From: Azoarcus sp.
GTDB lineage: Bacteria; Pseudomonadota; Gammaproteobacteria; Burkholderiales; Rhodocyclaceae
Length of the DNA stretch: 64,000 bases
Assembly: GCA_031268195.1 (NCBI GenBank)
Contig: JAIRXQ010000024.1
Coordinates: 36,428-100,427, forward strand
Direction of reading: 5' to 3'
The notes under the pieces: model-generated
Seen by the model: the letters and a program-made list of their open reading frames with translations, nothing else
Database searches by the model: none
What the model was told of the DNA's origin: nothing
Position numbers and translations under genes: made by a program
In this document: positions 5,042 to 26,751 of the stretch, one piece after another
Layout: the number at the start of each line of letters is the position of its first letter
How positions within the stretch are numbered: position 1 is the first letter of the stretch

Positions 5042-6513
<1,472 letters not shown>

Positions 6514-6558
6514 AGACAGGCGATAATGGCGCCTTTGGCCCCGCTGCGAGGATTCCCC

Positions 6559-7617
6559 GTGAGCCGAATCAAGAACGACACCTTCCTCACCGCGCTGTTG
6601 CGCGAGCCGACGCCTTACACCCCCATCTGGCTGATGCGGCAGGCCGGGCGCTATCTGCCCGAATACCGCGAAACCCGCCAGCGCGCGGGCAGTTTCCTTG
6701 CCCTGTGTAAAAACCCGTCGCTGGCCTGCGAGGTGACCTTGCAGCCGCTGGCGCGCTTCGATCTCGATGCGGCGATCCTTTTCTCCGACATCCTCACCGT
6801 GCCCGATGCAATGGGGCTGGGGCTGTACTTTGCCGAGGGTGAAGGGCCGAAGTTCGAGCGCCCCTTGCGCGAGGAACGGGATATTCGCAACCTCGCCGCG
6901 CCCGATCCGCATGCCGGGCTGCGCTACGTGATGGACGCCGTGGCCGAAATCCGCCGCGCACTGGACGGCAGCGTGCCGCTGATCGGCTTCTCCGGCAGCC
7001 CGTGGACACTGGCCTGCTACATGGTCGAAGGCGGCTCCTCCAGCGATTACCGCACGGTGAAAGCGCTCGCCTACACGCGGCCCGACCTCATGCACCATAT
7101 TCTCGATGTCACCACGCGCGCCGTCACCGACTACCTCAACGCCCAGATCGAGGCGGGCGCGCAGGCGGTCATGGTGTTCGATTCGTGGGGCGGCACGCTC
7201 TCGGAGGCCGCCTATCACGAATTCTCGCTCGCCTATCTGCAACGGATTGCCGCTGGACTCACGCGCGAGCGCGAAGGCCGGCGCGTGCCGAGCATCGTAT
7301 TTACCAAGGGTGGCGGCTTGTGGCTGGAAGCCATCGCCGCCAGCGGCTTCGATGCCGTCGGGCTCGACTGGACGCTGGACATCGGCCGCGCCCGCGCACG
7401 GGTAGGCGAGCGCGTCGCGCTGCAAGGCAACCTCGATCCCGCCGTACTGTGCGCCAGCCCGCAGGCCGTCGCTGCCGAAGCGCGCCGCGTGCTCGAAGCC
7501 TTCGGCCCGCATCCGGGACATGTGTTCAATCTCGGGCACGGCATTTCGCAATACACCCCGCCCGAAAACGTCGCCGCGCTGGTCGAGGCAGTACACCGCT
7601 ACGCGCACACGCCTTGA
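6559..7617 (+). CDS. hemE: Uroporphyrinogen decarboxylase
   Basis: [27 protein letters not shown]; GTG start after a GAGGA RBS. Confidence 0.96.
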
Positions 7618-7618
7618 C

Positions 7619-7816
7619 TTATGCACACGAACACCATCCGTAGCAACGTTTGAGGCGCGGATGCTCGCTAATACAAAAATTGTGCAATGCGTTGATTTTT
7701 GGGCGGTATTTTTTTGCCTCATGAACAGGCAAAATGTGACTTTCTCCACAACAGCGCAGGTTTCGGGCTTTTTTACGCAGCTTGCCCACAAAGTTATCCA
7801 CAACATCTGTGGGCAA
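7619..7816. promoter_or_regulatory. Cluster of DnaA-box-like 9-mers between hemE and priA
   Basis: TTATGCACA 7619-7627, TTCTCCACA 7742-7750, TTGCCCACA 7782-7790, perfect TTATCCACA 7794-7802, inverted TGTGGGCAA 7808-7816. Confidence 0.6.
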
Positions 7817-7956
7817 GCGGAAGTCATCCTGCCAGGGCAAACACTTACCGTCTTTCCTCGTGACACGGCCTTAAGATTTCGGCCTAACCCATTGGGACGC
7901 TACGCACTTCCTGCGCCAAACACGCTTTTCCGTCCTGTCACCTGACCGTTCCGCTC

Positions 7957-9957
7957 ATGCCTGTCGTCCGCGTCGCCCTTCCCATTCCGCTGCCACAACT
8001 GTTCGACTATCTGGCCGAGGACGCGAGCGCCGCCGACATCGGCCACTGCGTGCGCGTCCCGTTCGGGCACGGCGAAAAAAGCGGACTCATCCTCGCGCTG
8101 CCGGAACGCACCGAGCTCGATCCCGCCCGCCTGAAACCGGTCGCCTACATCCAGCGCGATGTGCCCGCGCTGCCGCCCGACTGGATCGAATTGGTCGAAT
8201 TCACCGCCTGTTACTATCACGCGCCGCTTGGCGAAGTGATCGCGCTCGCGCTGCCGCCGGGCCTGCGCCGCGCCAAAGCACCCGCCAAGCGCCGCAAGGC
8301 GAAAACCCGCGCGCCGGACGACGCACCGCCGCCCGCCGCCGCCTTGCCGACGCTCACCGCGGGACAGGCCGCCGCGCTGGCCACCTGCTGCGCCGCCGAA
8401 GGCTTCGCAGCCTGGCTGCTCGCGGGCGTCACCGGCAGCGGCAAAACCGAGGTTTACCTGCGTCTGGCCGCCAACGCGCTCGCGGCTGGAAAACAGGTGT
8501 TGATGCTGGTGCCGGAAATCGCGCTCACCCCGCAGCTGGAAGCGCGCGTACACGACCGCTTTCCCGCCGCGCACATCGTCAGCCTGCATTCGGCGCTCGC
8601 GCCCGGCGCGCGGGCGCGCGGCTTCGTGCAGGCGCTCACGGGCGAGGCCGACATCGTGCTCGGCACGCGGCTGGCCGTGTTCGCGCCCCTGCCGCGGCCG
8701 GGACTTTTCCTGATCGACGAAGAGCATGACGCCTCCTACAAGCAGCAGGAAGGCATCCGCTACAGCGCGCGTGATCTCGCCATCTGGCGCGCGCATCAGC
8801 ATGGCGTGGCGGTGGTGCTCGGCTCCGCCACCCCGGCGCTGGAGAGCTGGCGGCACGCGCAGGACGGGCGCTACCGCCTGCTGACGCTTCCCGCCCGCGC
8901 CCGCGCCGCCGCGCTCCCCACGGTCAAGACCGTCGACACCCGGCGCTGCCGTCTCGACGAAGGCTTTGGCCCGCAGCTCCTCGCCGCGCTGGCCGCCCAC
9001 CTCGAACGCGGCGAACAGAGCCTCGTTTTCCTCAACCGGCGCGGCTATGCCCCGGTGCTTTCCTGCCCCGCCTGCGGCTGGGTGAGCCAGTGCCCGCACT
9101 GTTCGGCCAATCGTGTCGTCCACCTCGCCGATCGCCGCCTGCGTTGCCATCACTGCGGCGCGGAGGCGCCCATTCCACGCGCCTGCCCGGTGTGCGGCAA
9201 TCAGGACATCCACCCCTACGGCTACGGCACGCAACGCATCGAAGCAAAGCTCAAGACGCTCTTTCCCTCCGCCCGCATCCTGCGCCTCGACCGCGACGCC
9301 GCCCGCACCCGCGCCCGCTGGGAGAGCCTGCTCGCCACCATCGCCGCGGGCGAGGCCGATATCCTCGTCGGCACGCAGATGATGGCCAAGGGGCACGACT
9401 TCCCGCTGCTGACGCTCGTCGGCGTCCTCGGCGCGGATGCCTCACTGCACGCCGCCGATTTTCGCGCCCCGGAGCGCCTGTTCCAGCAGTTGATGCAGGT
9501 CGGTGGGCGTGCCGGGCGCGCCGAGCTGCCCGGTGAGGTTTTGATTCAGACCGAATACCCCGAACATCCGCTCTATCGCTGCCTGACCCGCCACGATTTC
9601 GCCGCCTTCGCCGCGCTGGAACTCGACGCCCGCCACGCCGCCGCTTTCCCGCCCTTTTCGTTTCAGGCGATGCTGAAAGCCGACGCTCCCCAGCTTGCCG
9701 ACGCCGTCGATTTCCTGCGTCAGGCGCGCCAACTGGCGGCGAAATACGCCCACGCCACGAGCGCTGTCCGCGTTTTCGACCCCGTGCCCATGCGCCTCAC
9801 CCGCCTCGCCCGCCGCGAGCGCGCGCAACTGCTCCTCGAAGCCGACCGCCGCGCCGCGCTACAGGATTTCCTCTCCCGCTGGCTGGAAGAAGTTCGCGCC
9901 CTGCGCCCGCCGCGCGAGCTGCGCTGGCAGGTGGATGTCGATCCGCTGGAGGTGTGA
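7957..9957 (+). CDS. priA: Primosomal protein N' (replication restart helicase)
   Basis: GVTGSGKTEVY, DEEH, FLNRRGYAP, four CxxC, GTQMMAKGHDFP, QVGGRAGR. Confidence 0.96.
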   Translation: MPVVRVALPIPLPQLFDYLAEDASAADIGHCVRVPFGHGEKSGLILALPERTELDPARLKPVAYIQRDVPALPPDWIELVEFTACYYHAPLGEVIALALPPGLRRAKAPAKRRKAKTRAPDDAPPPAAALPTLTAGQAAALATCCAAEGFAAWLLAGVTGSGKTEVYLRLAANALAAGKQVLMLVPEIALTPQLEARVHDRFPAAHIVSLHSALAPGARARGFVQALTGEADIVLGTRLAVFAPLPRPGLFLIDEEHDASYKQQEGIRYSARDLAIWRAHQHGVAVVLGSATPALESWRHAQDGRYRLLTLPARARAAALPTVKTVDTRRCRLDEGFGPQLLAALAAHLERGEQSLVFLNRRGYAPVLSCPACGWVSQCPHCSANRVVHLADRRLRCHHCGAEAPIPRACPVCGNQDIHPYGYGTQRIEAKLKTLFPSARILRLDRDAARTRARWESLLATIAAGEADILVGTQMMAKGHDFPLLTLVGVLGADASLHAADFRAPERLFQQLMQVGGRAGRAELPGEVLIQTEYPEHPLYRCLTRHDFAAFAALELDARHAAAFPPFSFQAMLKADAPQLADAVDFLRQARQLAAKYAHATSAVRVFDPVPMRLTRLARRERAQLLLEADRRAALQDFLSRWLEEVRALRPPRELRWQVDVDPLEV

Positions 9958-14149: not shown

Positions 14150-15217
14150 TCATGGTTCATCCTTGTGCGCCATCCGCGCCAGCTGCCTGTTTGCGTTGCG
14201 TGCGATTTCCTTTTGCCGCTCGCACAGCGCCACGTCCTCGTCAGGCTCGAAAACCCATTCCCAGCCCCAACCGTCGCCATCGTCGATCATCGCCACGATC
14301 TGAACCACGCCGATTTCGACAGAAGAATCGGCCGGGGCATTCGCCAGCGGAAATGTCTCGCCCTGGGAAGGGGAGCGCGTTTGCTTCGTTTCCCCCGGAA
14401 ACAAGCCATGTTCCCAATTGCGCTTGTCCAGCTGCGCGTAAAGAGAACGCTGTGCTTCGGGAAACAGCGGGTCTTTCATCGGCGGCGCCCAACCGATGCC
14501 GAATCGCACCTGCGCACGGGGCTTGCTTTCTCCCGCGAACATGTGCCGCGCATTCACGGTCATGCTCTTGATGCGGTAACGGCTTGCGTTGGCGACGGTG
14601 AGCACCAAGAGATTGTTCATGCCCTGACGCTCGAAGGTGGCGCTCAACAAGCGGACCTTCTCCAATTCGTGCTGTGCAGTCGCACAACGCACATAAGCGG
14701 CCTCGGCTTCGGCCTTGATGATTTGGTAGGACTCCTGTTCCCTCTGGGCGCGGGCGCGTCTTTCTTCCGCGCCATGCGCGCGCGTCTGCATCCTGCGCAG
14801 ACGCTTTTCGCGCAATCCATACGCGGCGGCCCGAATTTCGGGGAGCGTCCTGCCCGCCAAGGAGTGCCTTGCCTTCAATGCAACGACCCCCGGCGAGTTC
14901 AACATCCGCTCGAGCACATAAACGGCGTTGTCGACACCGGCCAGATAGGCAAAAGACTCCGTCCACTTGAAAGGACTGCTGGGGCGCACGTTCTCCCAGA
15001 GATTGAGGATGAAATCCTGCTGCTCCGAACTGTCCATGCCGGCAGTCATTCTTTTCACCGAAGCGATCATGGCCTCTCTGCCGCGGTCATCGAGGCGCAG
15101 TGTCTGCACCCCCCGCTCACGCTCCTCGGCGCCGCCGCAGCCCGCCAGCGCCGAGAGCGCCGCCACGACGGCGCCGAGCCGGAACACCGGCAAAAGGGGC
15201 GGCATGGGCGCGCCCAC
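14150..15217 (-). CDS. Hypothetical lipoprotein
   Basis: Lipobox ALAGC, coiled-coil-like middle, GGAGG RBS; abuts the cytochrome stop. Confidence 0.65.
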   Translation of the reverse strand: MGAPMPPLLPVFRLGAVVAALSALAGCGGAEERERGVQTLRLDDRGREAMIASVKRMTAGMDSSEQQDFILNLWENVRPSSPFKWTESFAYLAGVDNAVYVLERMLNSPGVVALKARHSLAGRTLPEIRAAAYGLREKRLRRMQTRAHGAEERRARAQREQESYQIIKAEAEAAYVRCATAQHELEKVRLLSATFERQGMNNLLVLTVANASRYRIKSMTVNARHMFAGESKPRAQVRFGIGWAPPMKDPLFPEAQRSLYAQLDKRNWEHGLFPGETKQTRSPSQGETFPLANAPADSSVEIGVVQIVAMIDDGDGWGWEWVFEPDEDVALCERQKEIARNANRQLARMAHKDEP

Positions 15218-19286: not shown

Positions 19287-20324
19287 TTAAAAGCGTTGCT
19301 GATAGCCCACAGCGGCCGACCAGCTGTCGAGATTGACTTCGTTGAGATCGGTGCGTCCCCTGCCGCCGGAAGCGGGGTAGTAATAGCGATCACCCCGTCT
19401 CAGCCGCAGCATCTGCTGATCCAGCCGGAGCGTGAGCGCGCGCTCGGGCGTCAGCCACCACGCCGCGCCCATGCCCAGTTGCCAGCCATAGCTGTCGCCC
19501 TTTTGACGATGCGTGGTCGGCTGCGCCAGATCGCCGCGCAGGTTCCAGGTCGAATCGGCGCGCAGCTTGAACCACTGCCGCTTCGCCGAAATATTGAAAG
19601 CGAACCTCTCCGTGGGCTGCGCATCGATCCGCAACCCCAGCCACGGACCGCGCCAGCTGGGCCGGTAGTGCGAATCCAGCCCGTGGAAGCGGCCCAGATC
19701 ACCGTACACCGTGTCGATGACCAGCACCCCGTGGCGCATCCGCATGTCGTGTTCCTGGTAGGCGTAGCCGAGCATCGGCTTGAAGCTGACGCGGGCAAAC
19801 GGATCGAATCGCCAGCCCACGCCGGCGGACAGGCGGGTGGCGCTGCTGCCGTCCACCTTGGCGTAAGAGCGCGAGAACTCACCGCGCCGGTTGTCGTATA
19901 AGTAATCGGAGTCCCGGTTTCTCCCGTCGAAGGCGGTGGCGTGCGCCAGATCCATCTCCGCGACGAAACCCTCGTCACCTTCCCAATCGAAGTCGACGCG
20001 CAACTCCGCCATGTCCGTTTTCCACTTGAGCTCGGAGACGATGTTCGGCACCCCGCCCGCTCCCGCGATGTTGTAATCGATCGTCTCCCGCCGATAACCA
20101 AGCGAGATCGACCATGTGGCGTTGCCATCGATGAAACTGGCCGCAGCGTCCCCGGGCGCGGGCGGCTCCGCCACGCGGCGGATTTTCGCCACTGGGGCCG
20201 CCGGGCGCGCCTGTGGCGTCTCGTACACCCAGATGTTTGCTTCATCGAGCGGATGCGCCGCCAGCGGCGCGGAGAGCAGCGCAAAGAGCGCCAGCGGCAA
20301 AAAACGGGCGTGGTGGCATTTCAT
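19287..20324 (-). CDS. Omptin-like outer-membrane beta-barrel
   Basis: Signal peptide; VSELKWK, GRNRDSDY and YRPSWRGPWLGL parallel recalled OmpT segments (VSQLDWK, NMVDQDW, YKQRFKMPYIGL); C-terminal Phe. Confidence 0.7.
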   Translation of the reverse strand: MKCHHARFLPLALFALLSAPLAAHPLDEANIWVYETPQARPAAPVAKIRRVAEPPAPGDAAASFIDGNATWSISLGYRRETIDYNIAGAGGVPNIVSELKWKTDMAELRVDFDWEGDEGFVAEMDLAHATAFDGRNRDSDYLYDNRRGEFSRSYAKVDGSSATRLSAGVGWRFDPFARVSFKPMLGYAYQEHDMRMRHGVLVIDTVYGDLGRFHGLDSHYRPSWRGPWLGLRIDAQPTERFAFNISAKRQWFKLRADSTWNLRGDLAQPTTHRQKGDSYGWQLGMGAAWWLTPERALTLRLDQQMLRLRRGDRYYYPASGGRGRTDLNEVNLDSWSAAVGYQQRF

Positions 20325-22669
20325 GGCTGTTCCACGGCTTGTTCGTAGGGTTGATGGGAGATGGCGTAGGCCCACGTCCAGGAGCGTTCGCCGCCCGCGG
20401 CGTCGAGCTGCTTGCGTTCCACCACCATGGCCGCCCAGCGCCCGACGATGCGCGTCGGCGTCAGCGTCGCGGGCCGGGCGTTCAGGTTGATGACGCGCAG
20501 CGCCGTGATGTAGTAGCCGTCTTTCTGCCAGGCGGCCACCGCCTGGAATTCCAGATCGTCGCCCAGCTGGCGCGTCTGACGCGCGGCAATGGGCAGGTGA
20601 ACCGGCTGCAAATCTCCGGGCGGCGGCGCGGTGGGGTCTTCCTGCCGCACCGCGTCGGCGGCGGCGCGCGCCAAGCCGCCGAGACGTTCGAGCTCGGCCT
20701 TGTTGCTGCTCGCCGCCGCAGCGGCGGGCGGGGCGGCCGCCGGCGTTGCGCCGCCTGCCGCCGCGGCCAGCCCGAAAGCCGGGTCGAACATGGAGTCGCG
20801 CTTCTCGGGTTTGGCCGTCGCGGCCAGTCCCTGCGAGGAGCCGCCGGCATCCAGCGAACGCACTTCGGCCTCCTTGCCCCGCGCCAGCGTGTCGCTTTCT
20901 TCCGGCGTCTCCAGCACGTGCGGCGTAATCAGCAGCACGATCTGCTTGCGCACGTTGGATTTCACCTTTTTCTTGAAGAGCACGCCGAGGCCCGGAATAT
21001 CGCCGAGCAAAGGGACTTTTTCTTCCGCATCGGAGACGCGCTGCGAAATCATGCCGCCCACCGCCACGGTGAGTCCGTCGCGCGCATGCGCGGTCACCTG
21101 CAGGTTGGCGGTGTTGACCGTGTCGATGGGGTAATCGAAGGTTTCGCCGTTGGGCAGCGGCAGCGGCATGCGCGCGCCGCCCGCGTTGATGCGGGAATTG
21201 TCCTGGTCGACGGTGAGCGTCACCGAGCGGTCGGCGTTGATGCGCGGCAAAATGATGAGTGTCTGGCCGACGTTGCGCCGCTCGGTCTCCACCGTGATCG
21301 TGGTGTTGTTTGCGCCGGTGGTGCCGGTGGTGCTGTCGGATTCCGCGCCGGTGATGAGAATTTGTTCATCCCCGATGAAAAGGCGCGCGGGCTGGTTGTT
21401 CGATGCCACCAACATCGGCGTGGCAAGCACGTTGACACGGTTTTCACTCTCCAGCATTTGCAGGCGCAGGCGCAGGGTGTCGCTCACCAGTTGCCAGACG
21501 GCGGTGGCGGTTTCCTCGGGGCCGAAATTGCCGAGCGAGGCGGCGTTGCGGGGATAGCCGCCTGCCACGCTGCCGTCGATGTCGCTGCCGTGGTTCAGGC
21601 CGTACGGCCCGCTCGTGCCGTTGTCCCGCACGCGGGTGGTGCTGTTGCCGCTCAAGCCGATGTCGAACACCGAGCGGAAGTCGCCCCCCAGCTCCACTTC
21701 GAGGATGCGCATCTCCAGCAGCACCTGACGCGGCGGGTGATCCATGTCCGTGACGAGTTTGTCGATGTCTTTCAGCGCCGCCTCGTCGCTGGTGCGCACC
21801 AGCAGCAGATTGTGCTGCTTGTTGTAGGTAATGTTGATCGGCGGGCCCTGGTTGGAGACCGCCTGTTGCAGCTCGGAGGCCTCGACGCGCATCACCGCGC
21901 TGCCATCGATGTCGAGCGAAGCTTCCAGACCGGCTTGCGAGACGTTGGCGATTTCCGTGCGCGGGTCTTTCCCCGCCATCTGTCTCACGCCCCGACTGCC
22001 GCCGCTGCGCCGCGTGGTCGCGCCTTCCGGACTCATGGAAAAGCCGCGGCTCGAACCGCCGCCCAGTCCCATGCCGCCGCTTGCGCCGTTCATGCCGCTC
22101 GAGCGGCTTCCCGTGCTGCCGGTTTGCGTGCGGGCGGTGCTGCCCATTTCGAGCGGCGGCATTTCCTCCACTGGCTCGACGAGATTGACCCGTTCGCCAT
22201 AGAGCGCGGCAATCGCGTTGGCAATGCTGACGACATTGTTGTGGCGAAGCATGTAGTTGCGCGTGATCTCGTCGCGCGTGATGGCGATGTCCTGCTGGTA
22301 TTCCTTGGCATCCATCAGGATGTAAGCCTTGGTCTGGCTGTCGTAGCGATACCAGACCCCGGCGGCGCGCGAAAGGCTTCTCACCATGCCTTCGACATTG
22401 ACATCGCGCAGGTAGAGCGACACTTTCTTGTTCGCCACGCTGGAGGTGACGACGATGCTGGTCTTGCCGATCTGCGAGATGAACTGCGCCGCTTCATCGA
22501 GCGTGATCTGCTTGAAATACACGTCTCCCGGCGAACCGTTGGCGTCGAGCCTGGCGGGCTGTAGCGGGCGCGCGGCGGCGGGTAGCGCGGCCGTGAGCGC
22601 CAGCGCCAGCGCCGTAACCCGCAAAACGGGGGAAAAGCATTCGAGTCTTCGCATGGTTGACCTGTTCAT
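20321..22669 (-). CDS. Secretin (GspD/PilQ family) with an extra C-terminal domain
   Basis: Signal, N0-like and N3 domains, QVLLEMRILEV, VLATPMLVASNNQPA, TVAVGGMI, KVPLLGDIPGLGVLFK, IVLLITPHV. Confidence 0.92.
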   Translation of the reverse strand: MNRSTMRRLECFSPVLRVTALALALTAALPAAARPLQPARLDANGSPGDVYFKQITLDEAAQFISQIGKTSIVVTSSVANKKVSLYLRDVNVEGMVRSLSRAAGVWYRYDSQTKAYILMDAKEYQQDIAITRDEITRNYMLRHNNVVSIANAIAALYGERVNLVEPVEEMPPLEMGSTARTQTGSTGSRSSGMNGASGGMGLGGGSSRGFSMSPEGATTRRSGGSRGVRQMAGKDPRTEIANVSQAGLEASLDIDGSAVMRVEASELQQAVSNQGPPINITYNKQHNLLLVRTSDEAALKDIDKLVTDMDHPPRQVLLEMRILEVELGGDFRSVFDIGLSGNSTTRVRDNGTSGPYGLNHGSDIDGSVAGGYPRNAASLGNFGPEETATAVWQLVSDTLRLRLQMLESENRVNVLATPMLVASNNQPARLFIGDEQILITGAESDSTTGTTGANNTTITVETERRNVGQTLIILPRINADRSVTLTVDQDNSRINAGGARMPLPLPNGETFDYPIDTVNTANLQVTAHARDGLTVAVGGMISQRVSDAEEKVPLLGDIPGLGVLFKKKVKSNVRKQIVLLITPHVLETPEESDTLARGKEAEVRSLDAGGSSQGLAATAKPEKRDSMFDPAFGLAAAAGGATPAAAPPAAAAASSNKAELERLGGLARAAADAVRQEDPTAPPPGDLQPVHLPIAARQTRQLGDDLEFQAVAAWQKDGYYITALRVINLNARPATLTPTRIVGRWAAMVVERKQLDAAGGERSWTWAYAISHQPYEQAVEQP

Positions 22670-24410: not shown

Positions 24411-26005
24411 AAGAACACCCTCGCTTCCTCGAAGCTCGTCAGCCCGTCGAGCACCTTGGCGCGCGCATCGTCCGCCAAGCGCCAGTAATCCTTCGCCGTC
24501 TCCGCGATCACACGCTCGCCCGCCCCGTTTGAGATCGCCGCCGCCAGATCGGCATCCACCCACAGCGCCTCATACAACCCGATGCGGCCGCGATAGCCGG
24601 AGCCGAGGCAGCGCGGGCAGCCGCAAGGCGCAAAGATGCGCGGCGCGGCCGCCTCCTCCGCAATGCCGAGCAGGCGGCGCTCCTGCGGCGCGGCGTCCCG
24701 CTCGCGCTTGCAATGCGGGCACAACATGCGCACCAGCCGCTGCGCGAGGATGCCGCGCAGCGTTGCGCCGAGCATGAAACGCTCGCAGCCGATGTCCGTC
24801 AGCCGCGTCACCGCGCCGGGAGCGCTGTTGGTGTGCAGGGTGGACAGCACCATATGCCCGGTAGTGGCCGCCTTCAGCGCCACGTCGGCCGTGTCGAGGT
24901 CGCGGATTTCGCCCACCAGGATCACGTCCGGATCGTGGCGTAGGAAAGAGCGCAAGGCGCTCGCGAACCCCACCTTGCTATTGACCTGCACCTGCGAGAC
25001 GCCGGGAATCACCTGCTCGATGGGGTCTTCGGCGGTGAGGATGTTGAGGCTGTCGGCGTCGAGCTCGCGCAGCGCGCAATACAACGTCGTGCTCTTGCCG
25101 CTGCCGGTCGGCCCCGTCACCAGCACGATGCCATGCGGATGGCTCAGCGCCTCGCGCAGCCGCGTGACGGCGGCGGGCGAAAGGCCGAGCGCGTCGAGCC
25201 GCTGCCGCCCCGGATCGCTTTTCATCACCCGCAGCGTCAGGCGTTCGCCGAACTTCACCGGCGCGGAAGCCACCCGCATCTCGATGTCGCCGCCTTCGCC
25301 GGAAGGGTAGATCAGCCCGCCGTCCTGCGGCGCGCGCGCCTCCGCAATGTCCATGCCCGAAAGCACCTTCACACGCGAAATGAGCGCATCGCCCAGCTCC
25401 TTGGCCAGCGGCGCGCCGAACACTTCGAGACGCCCGTCCACCCGCAGCCGTACGCGCGCGCCGTTTTTGATCGACTCGATGTGGATGTCGGAGGCGCGGC
25501 GCAGGAAAGCCTCGCGCACGATACGCTCGAACAGCCGCACCGGGTCTTCGGTCTCCCCCCCCGCGCTTGCCTCGTGTCCGCGCAGGCGCAGAATCAGCAG
25601 CGCCAACCCTTCCGGCTCCGCCAGCGCCAGCGGCAGCACGCCCACGACGCGGCGCGCGCTCTCGATGCCGATCACATCGTCCGGATTGCCCACCACCAGA
25701 TGCGCCGCCCCGCCCGCGTCGCGCAGCACCGCCATCGGATGGCGTTTCAGCAGCGGCGCGGGCAGCTTGGCAAGCAACACCTCGTCCGCCGTCCAGCGCG
25801 CCAGATGCGCGTAAGGCAGCCCGCGCACCTCGGCCAGCGCGAGGTAGAACGCCGTTTGCGGCAACGAACATTCGACGGCGAGCGCCTCCATCAAACTCAC
25901 CCGCCGCGCCCGCGCCACCGGCCGCAGCCGCGCCAACTGGTCGTTGTCGAACAGGCCCGCCTGCAAACCGGCCTGAATCAGCGTGGCTTCGGCGAGGTCG
26001 CTCAT
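24407..26005 (-). CDS. Assembly ATPase (PilB/GspE)
   Basis: RRASDIHIE, GPTGSGKSTT, EDPIE, LRHDPDVILVGEIRD, GHMVLSTLH, CPHC/CPRC zinc site. Confidence 0.93.
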   Translation of the reverse strand: MSDLAEATLIQAGLQAGLFDNDQLARLRPVARARRVSLMEALAVECSLPQTAFYLALAEVRGLPYAHLARWTADEVLLAKLPAPLLKRHPMAVLRDAGGAAHLVVGNPDDVIGIESARRVVGVLPLALAEPEGLALLILRLRGHEASAGGETEDPVRLFERIVREAFLRRASDIHIESIKNGARVRLRVDGRLEVFGAPLAKELGDALISRVKVLSGMDIAEARAPQDGGLIYPSGEGGDIEMRVASAPVKFGERLTLRVMKSDPGRQRLDALGLSPAAVTRLREALSHPHGIVLVTGPTGSGKSTTLYCALRELDADSLNILTAEDPIEQVIPGVSQVQVNSKVGFASALRSFLRHDPDVILVGEIRDLDTADVALKAATTGHMVLSTLHTNSAPGAVTRLTDIGCERFMLGATLRGILAQRLVRMLCPHCKRERDAAPQERRLLGIAEEAAAPRIFAPCGCPRCLGSGYRGRIGLYEALWVDADLAAAISNGAGERVIAETAKDYWRLADDARAKVLDGLTSFEEARVFL

Positions 26006-26751
26006 TTGCACTCGTCCTCTTTCAGCCACCGCCCGCCCGCCCGGATGTGGTCGAGCGTGTTACGAAATCCCGGTTCGAGCGCCACCGCTTGTTCGGCATA
26101 AGAAAGCGCCCGTTCGTCGCCCATGTGAAAAGCCAATGTCGACATCATAAAAAGTGACTTGGCATCCTGAGGCAATCCCATGCTCTCCCGGTACGCTTGC
26201 GCTTCGCGTAGAAGATGCAGGGCTTTGGCACAATTCCCGGTTGTCTGTTCTTCTATTGCCCGTAAAGCCCCGATTTCTTTATCCCAAGCCGGCTCGATTA
26301 TTTTGAGCAGATTGACTTCATTGACGGCAGCCTGCATTTTTCCTTTCAAATCATGAATGGCATTTTTTTCTTCTGCCGTGAAACGACGCTCCCACGCTGC
26401 TTGCATTTTTGTCGGCGGCAAATGGTGCAATTCGCTGGCAATGCTTTCCGCTTTTGCCGCGAACTCCAGCTCGGTCTCCATCTCTTTCACCGTCAGATGA
26501 CGCAACAACGATGCGCCCAAGGCCTGCCGGTAGCCTTTCGAGCGAAAAATGACAACGAGTTCCGGGATAGATGTTTTCTGGCCTTCCTCTTGCGCTATGC
26601 GTTGTGCGGCGTCCATGGTTCTCTCGACCGACGATATATATTGGTCCGCAAGCCGCTCCGCCAGCTCGATGTCGGAAGTGTCTTTCGAGCAGCCCACCAT
26701 GAAAAACACCGCCAGCGTCAAGGTGATGAAACGAATAAAAAATCGTTTCAT
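26002..26751 (-). CDS. Hypothetical lipoprotein, low GC, TPR-like C-terminal helices
   Basis: Lipobox MVGC; ATGA overlaps on both sides; 28/60 GC at 26281-26340. Confidence 0.7.
   Translation of the reverse strand: MKRFFIRFITLTLAVFFMVGCSKDTSDIELAERLADQYISSVERTMDAAQRIAQEEGQKTSIPELVVIFRSKGYRQALGASLLRHLTVKEMETELEFAAKAESIASELHHLPPTKMQAAWERRFTAEEKNAIHDLKGKMQAAVNEVNLLKIIEPAWDKEIGALRAIEEQTTGNCAKALHLLREAQAYRESMGLPQDAKSLFMMSTLAFHMGDERALSYAEQAVALEPGFRNTLDHIRAGGRWLKEDECK

What the first reader, a model, noticed from the sequence alone, without database searches (positions are those of the whole stretch)
20324..20700. Secretin carries a C-terminal domain resembling conjugative TraK/DUF3438 proteins
After the secretin core and an Ala-rich linker comes AVAAWQKDGYYITALRVINLNARPATLTPTRIVGRWAAMVVERKQLDAAGGERSWTWAYAI. 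This parallels my recollection of the C-terminal beta domain of ICE proteins DUF3438/TIGR03749 and F-type TraK (AAW..G.Y.VTAV.L.N......LDP..L.G...A......L...G....T..Y.V). Secretins normally end in a pilotin-binding S-domain. A T4SS outer-membrane-core-type domain fused to a secretin would be unusual.
Basis: inference. Interest (0 to 1): 0.68.

Follow-up and report, generated by a model that had tools for sequence, protein, structure and literature searches.

The report
Secretin carrying a TraK-like tail
An outer-membrane pore protein (secretin) of a pilus-like machine really does end in a small domain otherwise known only from the outer ring of DNA-transfer (type IV secretion) machines. The fusion is conserved in three phyla, I found no description of it, and in this lineage it is gained and lost together with the omptin-like barrel gene next door.

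Summary

- **Gene layout.** The 782-aa secretin (20321-22669, minus strand) has a normal secretin core, one short conserved helix, a roughly 50-residue Ala/Pro-rich linker and a 125-aa tail (20324-20698).
- **Sequence evidence.** The tail matches the C-terminal third of DUF3438/TIGR03749 (Pfam 31.3 bits, cut-off 25; NCBIfam E 2e-9). A search of 1.8 billion proteins gave 86 hits. About 30 were secretins or secretin fragments with the same tail, and all 44 full-size non-secretin hits were DUF3438 proteins.
- **Structure evidence.** AlphaFold gives a confident fold (pLDDT 95). Its only good PDB matches are TraK of the F and pED208 type IV secretion outer ring (TM 0.62-0.64). A profile-profile comparison with TraK_C gives 95% probability.
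- **Distribution.** The tail sits in 33 of 80 related loci, from Alpha-, Beta- and Gammaproteobacteria, Nitrospinota and Nitrospirota.
- **Link to the neighbour.** Tail-less sister loci always lack the omptin-fold "Pom" barrel gene that is ATGA-coupled to the secretin here (7 of 8 independent contrasts, 0 opposite). The closest relative lost the two by separate deletions.

Best reading: a TraK-CTD-type docking module under the outer membrane that ties the secretin to an accessory envelope protein, here probably the Pom barrel. Homology is solid. The partner is inferred.

The parts
20321..22669 (-). Secretin gene, 782 aa (an alternative start gives 777 aa). Its nearest curated families are GspD, PilQ and MshL, all below their cut-offs.
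   Evidence: ORF and translation; Pfam Secretin E 2.5e-37, Secretin_N; NCBIfam TIGR02517 176.7 bits against a cut-off of 351
20912..21454 (-). Secretin pore domain (PF00263), residues 406-586
20699..20911 (-). Residues 587-657. A short conserved helix-like segment (ETPEESDTLARGKEAEVRSLD), kept also in tail-less relatives, is followed by a low-complexity Ala/Pro/Gly linker of variable length and sequence.
   Evidence: C-terminal sequences of 24 relatives compared; consensus of alignment A5 is undefined over the linker
20324..20698 (-). TraK-CTD / DUF3438-C-like tail, residues 658-782
   Evidence: Pfam and NCBIfam hits; alignment A2; AlphaFold pLDDT 95.3, pTM 0.88; Foldseek TraK top hits; hhalign 95.3% against TraK_C
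20648..20695 (-). Helix alpha1 of the tail (residues 659-674), aligned with the 'LTRFAAQQLYAP' helix of DUF3438 proteins
   Evidence: DSSP on the model, H2-17; alignment A2
20357..20572 (-). Beta-sandwich of the tail (residues 700-771), with invariant G743 and W745 and near-invariant W714, T722, N728, Y768 and S771
   Evidence: strands E43-114 of the model; invariant columns of A2, A3 and A4. This is the stretch deleted in frame in the sister locus L013.
20321..20324 (-). ATGA overlap: the secretin stop codon TGA overlaps the ATG of the downstream barrel gene (translational coupling)
   Evidence: sequence read directly; the same CCATGA junction occurs in most relatives
19287..20324 (-). Pom-family (PF17251) outer-membrane barrel, 345 aa. 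It has an omptin fold with a roughly 40-residue N-terminal extension of low model confidence. It is the proposed partner of the tail.
   Evidence: Pfam Pom E 3e-39; AlphaFold pLDDT 83, residues 28-64 below 50; Foldseek OmpT/Pla TM 0.65-0.73 by query length, 0.81-0.86 by target length; co-occurrence with the tail

Best explanation
The last 125 residues of this secretin are a true homologue of the C-terminal domain shared by ICE TIGR03749/DUF3438 proteins and F-type TraK. In the F and pED208 machines that domain forms the upper, outer-membrane-proximal lobes of the outer ring and is clasped by a belt of the lipoprotein TraV.

In the secretin the domain follows the pore domain, one short S-domain-like helix and a flexible linker of roughly 50 residues. 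One copy per subunit would therefore hang just under the outer membrane around the outside of the barrel. Subunit number was not determined here.

I propose it is a docking module that stands where T2SS and T3SS secretins have their pilotin-binding S-domain, and that it ties the pore to an accessory envelope protein. In this organism and its Rhodocyclales relatives the partner is most likely the omptin-fold Pom barrel, which is translated from the overlapping ATGA directly after the secretin. Binding could go through that barrel's poorly modelled N-terminal periplasmic extension, by analogy with the TraV strands that wrap the TraK CTD.

Shown: homology, fold, conservation, and co-gain/co-loss with the barrel gene. 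Inferred: location, docking function and identity of the partner.

Separate confidences: homology about 0.9; docking module about 0.6; Pom as the partner about 0.4.
For: Homology:
- Pfam DUF3438 31.3 bits and TIGR03749 E 2e-9.
- All 44 full-size non-secretin hits of an exhaustive search are DUF3438/TIGR03749 proteins, matched at their C-terminus. Three of them also hit Pfam TraK_C, as does a further DUF3438 protein found in a genome search (L114).
- hhalign against TraK_C gives 95.3% probability.
- The AlphaFold model has pLDDT 95.3, with two helices plus five to six strands. This fits the published TraK CTD of 'two alpha helices and six beta strands' (PMC8617172).
- The Foldseek top two hits are the TraK chains.

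Role of the TraK CTD: it forms the upper outer-ring/O-layer and is held by the C-terminal domain of the TraV lipoprotein (PMC8770708; PMC8617172).

Selection: the tail is kept at 26-72% identity with invariant G and W residues in about 30 clusters at 50% identity and in 33 of 80 genome loci from three phyla. A single origin of the fusion is not rejected (AU p 0.37).

Partner:
- Among 64 loci with enough downstream DNA, the counts are tail+Pom+ 19, tail+Pom- 11, tail-Pom+ 0 and tail-Pom- 34.
- On the secretin-core tree there are 8 independent contrasts in the tail. Pom goes the same way in 7 and the opposite way in 0 (p 0.016).
- In sister locus L013 (80% core identity) the beta-sandwich is deleted in frame. 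The last roughly 10 codons, the stop and the first roughly 9 Pom codons survive. These are therefore two separate deletions.
- L019, L017 and L045 keep the E-x-P/ATGA junction, now coupled directly to moxR.
- Pom is single-copy in tail-bearing Betaproteobacteria genomes. It is absent genome-wide from 7 of 8 tail-less genomes.
- The Pom model has a low-confidence N-terminal extension before the barrel. In most orthologues that extension carries the motifs DPLxxAsMxVF and TLTVF.
Against: - No physical interaction was tested. AlphaFold-multimer was not available.
- The tail and pom are adjacent in the DNA, so co-loss is mechanically easy, and recombination between cassette variants could inflate the count of 'independent' events.
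- Eleven tail-bearing loci (Alphaproteobacteria, Nitrospinota, Nitrospirota) have no Pom gene, and three genomes of that kind that were searched have none anywhere. Pom therefore cannot be the universal partner.
- In those loci the slot after the secretin holds a membrane-anchored di-haem DHOR protein or a different barrel (PF13557).
- No TraV-like or TIGR03751-like lipoprotein is present in the cassette.
- One tail-less genome (G364) has a Pom fragment at a contig edge.
- The window's own Pom N-terminal extension is shorter and less typical than in its orthologues.
Confidence: 0.55

Rival explanations
1. Pilotin receptor. The tail replaces the S-domain and binds a not-yet-recognised outer-membrane lipoprotein, a functional analogue of TraV or TIGR03751 encoded elsewhere or too diverged to detect. 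That lipoprotein would pilot or staple the secretin to the outer membrane. The link with Pom would then be indirect.
For: In the T4SS the only documented ligand of this domain is a lipoprotein, the TraV CTD. In ICEs TIGR03749 lies in a K-B-V-like gene order with the lipoprotein TIGR03751. The position after the pore domain is where pilotin-binding S-domains sit (established knowledge of GspD and InvG). Tail-bearing loci without Pom exist.
Against: The whole genome has no TIGR03751 match. The only TraV lies beside a separate F-type traK on contig C20. The two lipoprotein candidates in the window (26002-26751 and 14150-15217) have no Pfam family and no detectable homologue in any of the 80 related loci. 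The PilP-like lipoprotein is present with and without the tail.
Confidence: 0.2
2. Recruitment of periplasmic redox or iron-handling proteins. The tail holds a haem protein (DHOR, or the multihaem cytochrome of this cassette) at the pore, as part of the low-iron pilus/FTR1 machine.
For: DHOR (PF06537) genes occur in 13 related loci, all tail-bearing and none tail-less, directly after the secretin or after Pom. With Pom, DHOR or the PF13557 barrel counted as one 'accessory slot', the counts are tail+slot+ 28, tail+slot- 2, tail-slot+ 0 and tail-slot- 34, with p about 0.008 on independent contrasts.
Against: The window itself has no DHOR. Its pentahaem cytochrome and cytochrome b genes are also present in tail-less loci. 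For DHOR alone only about 1.4 of the 8 contrasts are informative. The DHORs have an N-terminal membrane anchor, so they would sit at the inner membrane.
Confidence: 0.1
3. Self-assembly. The tails bind each other, or the outside of the barrel, to form a stabilising collar with no external partner.
For: TraK is a ring-forming scaffold. The domain is present in cassettes with different neighbouring genes.
Against: In the F and pED208 structures the TraK CTDs are separated by TraV and held together by it, not by direct contacts. This reading does not explain the strict co-loss with the adjacent accessory gene.
Confidence: 0.1
4. Chance resemblance, or a functionless evolutionary leftover of a gene fusion.
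For: TIGR03749 scores far below its full-length cut-off (33.7 against 138.8 bits). The Pfam TraK_C model does not hit.
Against: Sequence, profile-profile and fold evidence agree independently. The tail is conserved with invariant residues across three phyla, while the linker in front of it is not conserved. Where it is lost, it is lost cleanly and together with the neighbouring gene.
Confidence: 0.03

Closest known systems
TraK C-terminal domain of F-type T4SS (F plasmid PDB 7OKO; pED208 PDB 7SPB; Pfam PF23536 TraK_C)
   Same: Same fold: the Foldseek top two hits, TM 0.62-0.64. Profile-profile homology at 95% probability. Both have helices followed by a small beta-sandwich, lie at the C-terminus of the protein, and belong to an outer-membrane-associated ring machine.
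   Different: The Pfam TraK_C model does not detect the tail. It is attached to a secretin pore, not to a TraK N-terminal (VirB9-like) domain. No TraV or TraB partners are in the cassette. The machine is a PilB/PilT/PilC/pilin system, not a T4SS.
TIGR03749 / DUF3438 (PF11920), the TraK-position protein of ICE (PFL_4704-type, MPF-G) conjugation modules
   Same: This is the closest sequence relative: direct HMM hits, 25-40% identity over about 120 residues, and shared motifs AAW, YVTA, N, G-x-W and YLIS-x-PFE.
   Different: Only the last third of the family model is present. The N-terminal two thirds, the ICE context (TIGR03745/50/46/52/51) and the lipoprotein TIGR03751 are absent from the genome. 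In a tree, the secretin tails fall largely on one side, apart from the ICE proteins.
S-domain of T2SS/T3SS secretins (GspD/PulD, InvG) with their pilotins (established knowledge, not tested here)
   Same: Same position, C-terminal to the pore domain. It is expected to lie outside the barrel under the outer membrane, and a binding role for an outer-membrane partner is proposed.
   Different: The fold is unrelated: a 125-aa helix plus beta-sandwich on a long flexible linker, against a roughly 60-aa helical S-domain. No pilotin gene is recognisable. Only one short helix after the pore domain resembles an S-domain remnant.
Outer-membrane barrels attached to secretion machines (for example PDB 9nh1, 'porin I of the Legionella Dot/Icm T4SS machine'; RcpB next to the Tad secretin RcpA, from my own knowledge)
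   Same: An outer-membrane beta-barrel is encoded or found beside a large ring complex. Entry 9nh1 is a weaker Foldseek hit of the Pom model, TM 0.46-0.49 by query length.
   Different: Here the barrel has the omptin fold (OmpT/Pla, TM 0.65-0.73 by query length), and the proposed link goes through a T4SS-derived domain fused to the secretin. No physical association has been shown.

Membership tests
Secretin (PF00263; GspD/PilQ superfamily) | C-terminal secretin pore domain plus N-terminal ring-building domain(s) | tested here: met
   PF00263 E 2.5e-37 at residues 406-586; Secretin_N at 264-315 (20.5 bits, below its cut-off of 28.2)
Secretin subtype GspD, PilQ, MshL or SctC (NCBIfam equivalogs) | Score above the curated cut-off of one equivalog model | tested here: not met
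   Best is TIGR02517 at 176.7 bits against 351.35. PilQ scores 123.1 against 284, and MshL 118.3 against 250. It is an unclassified secretin clade.
DUF3438 (PF11920) | Pfam gathering score (25 bits) | tested here: met
   27.7 bits on the whole protein and 31.3 bits on the tail, but only model positions 169-241 of 252 are matched
TIGR03749 ICE protein (PFL_4704 family) | Full-length match above the cut-off of 138.8 bits, including the N-terminal domain | tested here: not met
   33.7-37.4 bits, model positions 182-259 only
TIGR03749 ICE protein (PFL_4704 family) | Location in an ICE conjugation module next to TIGR03746, TIGR03752 and TIGR03751 | tested here: not met
   A genuine module has that order. 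The window's genome has no other DUF3438 and no TIGR03751. The neighbours are pilus, MoxR and FTR1 genes.
TraK_C (PF23536), F-type T4SS | Match to the Pfam model | tested here: not met
   No hit at E<=1. A genome-wide PF23536 search finds only the true traK on contig C20.
TraK_C (PF23536), F-type T4SS | Same fold and remote homology (superfamily level) | tested here: met
   Foldseek 7spb_C1 and 7oko_3, probability 1.00, TM 0.64 and 0.62. hhalign 95.3%, E 2e-8.
TraK_C (PF23536), F-type T4SS | Binding of a TraV-type lipoprotein C-terminal domain | not testable with these tools
   No multimer prediction was available. No TraV-like gene is in the cassette.
VirB9 C-terminal domain | Structural match to VirB9/TraO/CagX CTD | tested here: not met
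   No VirB9-type entry is among the Foldseek hits shown. PMC8617172 equates VirB9/TraO CTD with the TraK N-terminal domain, not the C-terminal one.
Secretin S-domain / pilotin system | Recognisable S-domain and a pilotin gene | tested here: inconclusive
   No Pfam or NCBIfam family other than those listed matches residues 587-782. No pilotin family was found in the operon. Short helical S-domains are hard to detect by HMM.

The most novel reading that the evidence does not exclude
The TraK-type tails act as arms, one per secretin subunit, that each capture the N-terminal extension of one omptin-fold Pom barrel made in 1:1 ratio by translational coupling. A beta-barrel would take the place of the lipid-anchored TraV belt of F-type T4SS. 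The result would be a secretin surrounded by a crown of small barrels: a supercomplex type not described for any secretin, inside an iron-regulated pilus/FTR1 machine. A corollary is that the TraK/DUF3438 CTD is an exchangeable 'outer-membrane docking' module shared between T4SS and secretin systems. That would give real substance to the old and otherwise unsupported label 'secretin TraK'.
Probability: 0.25. Interest if true: 0.8.

Novelty: new variant of a known kind. Interest (0 to 1): 0.6.

Why it matters
Secretins and T4SS outer-membrane core complexes are treated as unrelated solutions for crossing the outer membrane. Here a structural domain of the T4SS outer ring is fused to a genuine secretin at the place where other secretins carry their pilotin-binding S-domain. 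The fusion is old and widespread: Rhodocyclales including Ca. Accumulibacter and Rhodocyclus tenuis, plus Rhodoferax, Methylococcaceae, several Alphaproteobacteria, Nitrospinota and Nitrospirota.

This gives three things:
- a first functional handle on DUF3438, for which I found no paper;
- a natural experiment (tail-bearing and tail-less sister cassettes) for asking how secretins are anchored or accessorised without a pilotin;
- a concrete, testable partner hypothesis (an omptin-fold barrel) within a large, uncharacterised, probably Fur-regulated pilus/FTR1 cassette.

It also bears on the long-standing annotation of TraK as a 'secretin'.

Tried and rejected
- Direct sequence searches of the tail, the tail profile and a full-length DUF3438 profile against PDB sequences found nothing relevant. 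Only fold and profile-profile comparison link it to TraK.
- The first word-indexed homologue search was swamped by the Ala-rich linker and returned only 5 hits. The exhaustive representative search was needed.
The narrower A5 worked.
- My first iterated Pom HMM was contaminated by out-of-frame ORF extensions overlapping the secretin gene and gave false 'Pom' hits in tail-less loci. It was rebuilt from the aligned regions only.
- I looked for a TraV or TIGR03751-type lipoprotein in the operon and the genome. There is none apart from a separate F-type T4SS on contig C20.
- The window's two non-conserved lipoprotein candidates are rejected as universal partners, because they have no homologue in the 80 loci.
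- I checked whether the DHORs could be outer-membrane lipoproteins. They have an N-terminal membrane anchor instead.
- I considered a read-through pseudo-fusion of tail and Pom from locus L036 as a stand-in for a multimer prediction. I dropped it because the tool returns no coordinates or inter-domain error, so an interface could not be judged.
- The F plasmid accession AP001918 is not in the plasmid collection.
- Literature: no paper mentions DUF3438, five mention TIGR03749 only in passing, and nothing describes the fusion. One search was useless because of the eukaryotic TRAK proteins.


Full report
**What is there.** The minus-strand ORF 20321-22669 encodes a 782-aa protein. It has a Sec-type signal and an N0-like region. 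A Gly/Ser-rich stretch, a Secretin_N repeat (264-315) and the secretin pore domain (406-586, E 2.5e-37) follow. No curated secretin subtype is reached: GspD scores 176.7 bits against a cut-off of 351.

After the pore domain comes one short conserved helix-like segment (ETPEESDTLARGKEAEVRSLD). A low-complexity Ala/Pro/Gly linker of roughly 50 residues follows, and then the 125-residue tail, residues 658-782, window 20324-20698. The quoted sequence is exactly at the stated place.

**Is the resemblance real?** Yes, on three independent lines.

*Family models.* PF11920 (DUF3438) matches residues 707-778 at 27.7 bits on the whole protein and 31.3 bits on the tail alone, against a cut-off of 25. TIGR03749 matches 703-779 onto the last 78 positions of its model, E 2e-9.

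*Reverse search.* phmmer of the tail against 1.84 billion representative proteins found 86 proteins at E<=1e-3. About 30 contain a secretin core N-terminal to the match, or are C-terminal fragments of such proteins. All 44 non-secretin hits of at least 200 aa are DUF3438/TIGR03749 proteins in which the match is C-terminal, and three of them also hit Pfam TraK_C. The joint alignment shows that homology spans the whole 125 residues. It covers a helix (LARAAADAV against LTRFAAQQLYAP), a Pro-rich turn and a beta-sandwich with the motifs AAW, YVTA, N, G-x-W and Y-x-IS-x-PFE.

*Structure.* AlphaFold2 on that alignment gives pLDDT 95.3 and pTM 0.88, with two helices and five to six strands. Foldseek against the PDB ranks 7spb_C1 first (E 6.7e-4, TM 0.64) and 7oko_3 second (E 4.5e-3, TM 0.62). 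Every later hit has TM of 0.40 or less. Both chains are TraK of the pED208 and F outer-membrane core complexes; in 7OKO the depositors' name is even 'Type-F conjugative transfer system secretin TraK'. A local hhalign of the tail profile against the C-terminal 135 residues of 24 TraK ORFs, found with PF23536 in genomes of the same class, gives 95.3% probability, E 2e-8, over 109 columns.

Sequence searches against PDB sequences alone see nothing, and the Pfam TraK_C model does not hit the tail. The relation to TraK is therefore at superfamily level, and the relation to DUF3438 at family level.

**What that domain does where it is known.** In pED208, TraK has an N-terminal beta-sandwich and a C-terminal domain (Y136-N238). 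The C-terminal domains form the upper lobed ring of the 13-fold outer ring complex and are separated and bound by the C-terminal domain of the lipoprotein TraV (PMC8770708). [quoted passage not shown] Together with the TraB CTD they define the O-layer under the outer membrane. It is the TraK N-terminal domain, not the C-terminal one, that resembles VirB9/TraO CTD (PMC8617172).

In a genuine ICE module from a genome of the same genus the gene order is TIGR03745, TIGR03750, TIGR03746, TIGR03749, TIGR03752, TIGR03751 (a lipoprotein). This is a K-B-V-like arrangement.

**Context.** The secretin lies in a long minus-strand cassette. In order it holds:
- four pilin-like genes, one of them very large
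- a PilM/N-like and a T2SS-M-like gene
- a PilT-like ATPase
- a non-conserved lipoprotein
- PilB/GspE, PilC and a PilP-like lipoprotein
- the secretin
- a Pom-family barrel (PF17251, E 3e-39)
- MoxR and DUF58
- a cytochrome-b-like protein and a multihaem cytochrome
- a second lipoprotein
- a GspG-like pseudopilin
- a TgpA-like transglutaminase
- FTR1

Earlier notes of this scan describe a Fur box at its promoter. The genome (2.5 Mb, 87 contigs) has no other DUF3438 and no TIGR03751. Its only TraK_C and TraV lie together on another contig, as part of a separate F-type T4SS. The tail is thus not a recent copy of a local conjugation gene.

**Distribution.** A scan of one genome per species returned 80 related secretin loci. 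The nearest are 'Azoarcus sp.' and Zoogloeaceae MAGs, so the window is from a member of the Rhodocyclales. An HMM of the tail finds it, always in the secretin ORF and always at its end, in 33 of the 80 loci. These come from:
- Zoogloeaceae
- Ca. Accumulibacter phosphatis (NC_013194.1)
- Rhodocyclus tenuis
- Propionivibrio
- Zoogloea
- Dechloromonas
- Rhodoferax
- a Methylococcaceae MAG
- Hyphomicrobiales
- Kiloniellaceae
- Sneathiellales
- Emcibacter
- Nitrospinaceae
- Nitrospirota

No locus encodes the tail as a separate ORF. In the window's genus, 6 of 22 genomes searched have it. In a tree of tail and DUF3438 C-domains, 28 of 30 secretin tails fall on one side, and a single origin is not rejected (AU p 0.37).

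**The link with the neighbouring gene.** The stop codon of the secretin overlaps the start codon of the Pom gene (ATGA, 20321-20324). Most relatives have the same junction. With a clean Pom HMM, Pom is found in 18 loci. It is always directly downstream of a tail-bearing secretin and never beside a tail-less one.

Among 64 secretins with at least 1.5 kb of downstream DNA, the counts are tail+Pom+ 19, tail+Pom- 11, tail-Pom+ 0 and tail-Pom- 34. On a maximum-likelihood tree of the secretin cores, tail-less forms are nested several times inside tail-bearing Betaproteobacteria clades. Of 8 phylogenetically independent contrasts in the tail on well-supported branches, Pom changes the same way in 7 and the opposite way in 0 (sign test p 0.016).

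Adjacent genes can be lost by a single deletion, so I examined the junctions.
- **L013.** This is the window's sister (80% identical core). It has lost residues equivalent to about 697-770, the beta-sandwich, in frame. It keeps the last roughly 10 codons (PFERAMELP against PYEQAVEQP), the stop, and the first roughly 9 codons of Pom (VKIHHVHF against MKCHHARF), followed by a stop and then moxR. That makes two separate deletions flanking a retained 55-nt junction.
- **L019, L017 and L045.** These keep the '...P-stop/ATGA' junction, now coupled directly to moxR. L017 and L045 also keep a 'PF' remnant.

Genome-wide, the four tail-bearing Betaproteobacteria genomes searched, and the window's own, have exactly one Pom gene, the one beside the secretin. 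Seven of eight tail-less genomes have none. One has a fragment at a contig edge, and none has a tail elsewhere (the profile search had no positive control in the same call).

The Pom model has the omptin fold (OmpT and Pla, TM 0.65-0.73 by query length and 0.81-0.86 by target length). Residues 28-64, before the barrel, are of low confidence. In most orthologues that extension carries the short strand-like motifs DPLxxAsMxVF and TLTVF.

**Limits of the Pom idea.** Eleven tail-bearing loci lack Pom. In seven Alphaproteobacterial ones the gene after the secretin is a membrane-anchored di-haem DHOR protein. In the two Nitrospinaceae loci a PF13557 barrel lies in that position. L046 and L048 have none of the three genes in the slot.

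DHOR also occurs after Pom in five Betaproteobacteria loci and never in tail-less loci. If 'any of Pom, DHOR or the PF13557 barrel' is counted, the table is tail+slot+ 28, tail+slot- 2, tail-slot+ 0 and tail-slot- 34 (p about 0.008). The robust statement is that the tail goes with an occupied accessory slot between the secretin gene and moxR. In the window's lineage that accessory is Pom.

**Most likely mechanism.**
- *Shown:* the tail is a TraK-CTD/DUF3438-C homologue, it is under selection, and it is co-inherited with the accessory gene.
- *Inferred from secretin and F-type core-complex structures:* the tail hangs from a flexible linker on the outside of the barrel just under the outer membrane, which is where the TraK CTD sits in the T4SS.
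- *Proposed:* it is a docking module, with the barrel's N-terminal extension taking the role of the TraV strands.

Rival readings are listed with their evidence: an unrecognised lipoprotein pilotin, recruitment of haem proteins, a self-assembled collar, and a relic.

**Novelty.** The Pfam architecture Secretin+DUF3438 is visible in precomputed annotations. I found no paper that mentions DUF3438, and none that describes a secretin with a T4SS core-complex domain. An older review repeats the hypothesis that TraK resembles secretins and their S-domain (PMC7555446). This fusion is the first concrete case I know of in which the two actually meet. I rate it a new variant of a known kind.

Noticed in passing
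window 19287-20324 (-): The Pom-family gene downstream of the secretin models as an omptin-fold barrel (OmpT and Pla top hits, TM 0.65-0.73 by query length). Before the barrel it has an N-terminal extension of low confidence. It is the only Pom gene in the genome.
   Followed up: partly
own genome, contig C20 about 5397-8200 (loci L093, L117, L118): A separate F-type T4SS is present elsewhere in the genome: a bona fide TraK_C (E 1.5e-23) and TraV (36.7 bits) about 2.5 kb apart. It is unrelated to the secretin cassette.
   Followed up: no
L012 12199-14863 and L016 2112-4683: Two 'Azoarcus sp.' MAGs carry two tandem Pom paralogues after the tail-bearing secretin instead of one.
   Followed up: no
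L020, L025, L026, L028, L036, L038, L041, L047, L052, L062, L066, L069, L088: A membrane-anchored di-haem oxidoreductase (DHOR, PF06537) gene follows the tail-bearing secretin, or follows Pom, in 13 loci. It is never found in tail-less loci. The window uses a pentahaem cytochrome plus a cytochrome-b-like pair instead.
   Followed up: partly
L013 11743-11960: The window's closest relative shows gene decay in action. There is an in-frame deletion of the tail's beta-sandwich, a degenerating alpha1 helix, and a 16-codon stub of Pom (VKIHHVHFITEPQGNT*) before moxR.
   Followed up: yes
L036 11567-11836: In an Accumulibacter MAG the secretin and Pom genes are separated by a 270-nt insert with short direct repeats (GATGACAG/ATCAGATGACAG) and a GC-rich palindromic stretch. 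This replaces the usual ATGA overlap and may be a small repeat element.
   Followed up: no
window 26002-26751 (-) and 14150-15217 (-): Two lipoprotein-like ORFs inside the cassette have no Pfam family and no detectable homologue in any of the 80 related loci. The first also has lower third-position GC than its neighbours. They look like lineage-specific insertions.
   Followed up: partly
G364 contig C91, 1-663: The genome holding the tail-less locus L023 has a Pom fragment at a contig edge, with no tail anywhere in the assembly. This is either a second, broken cassette or an exception to the tail-Pom rule.
   Followed up: no
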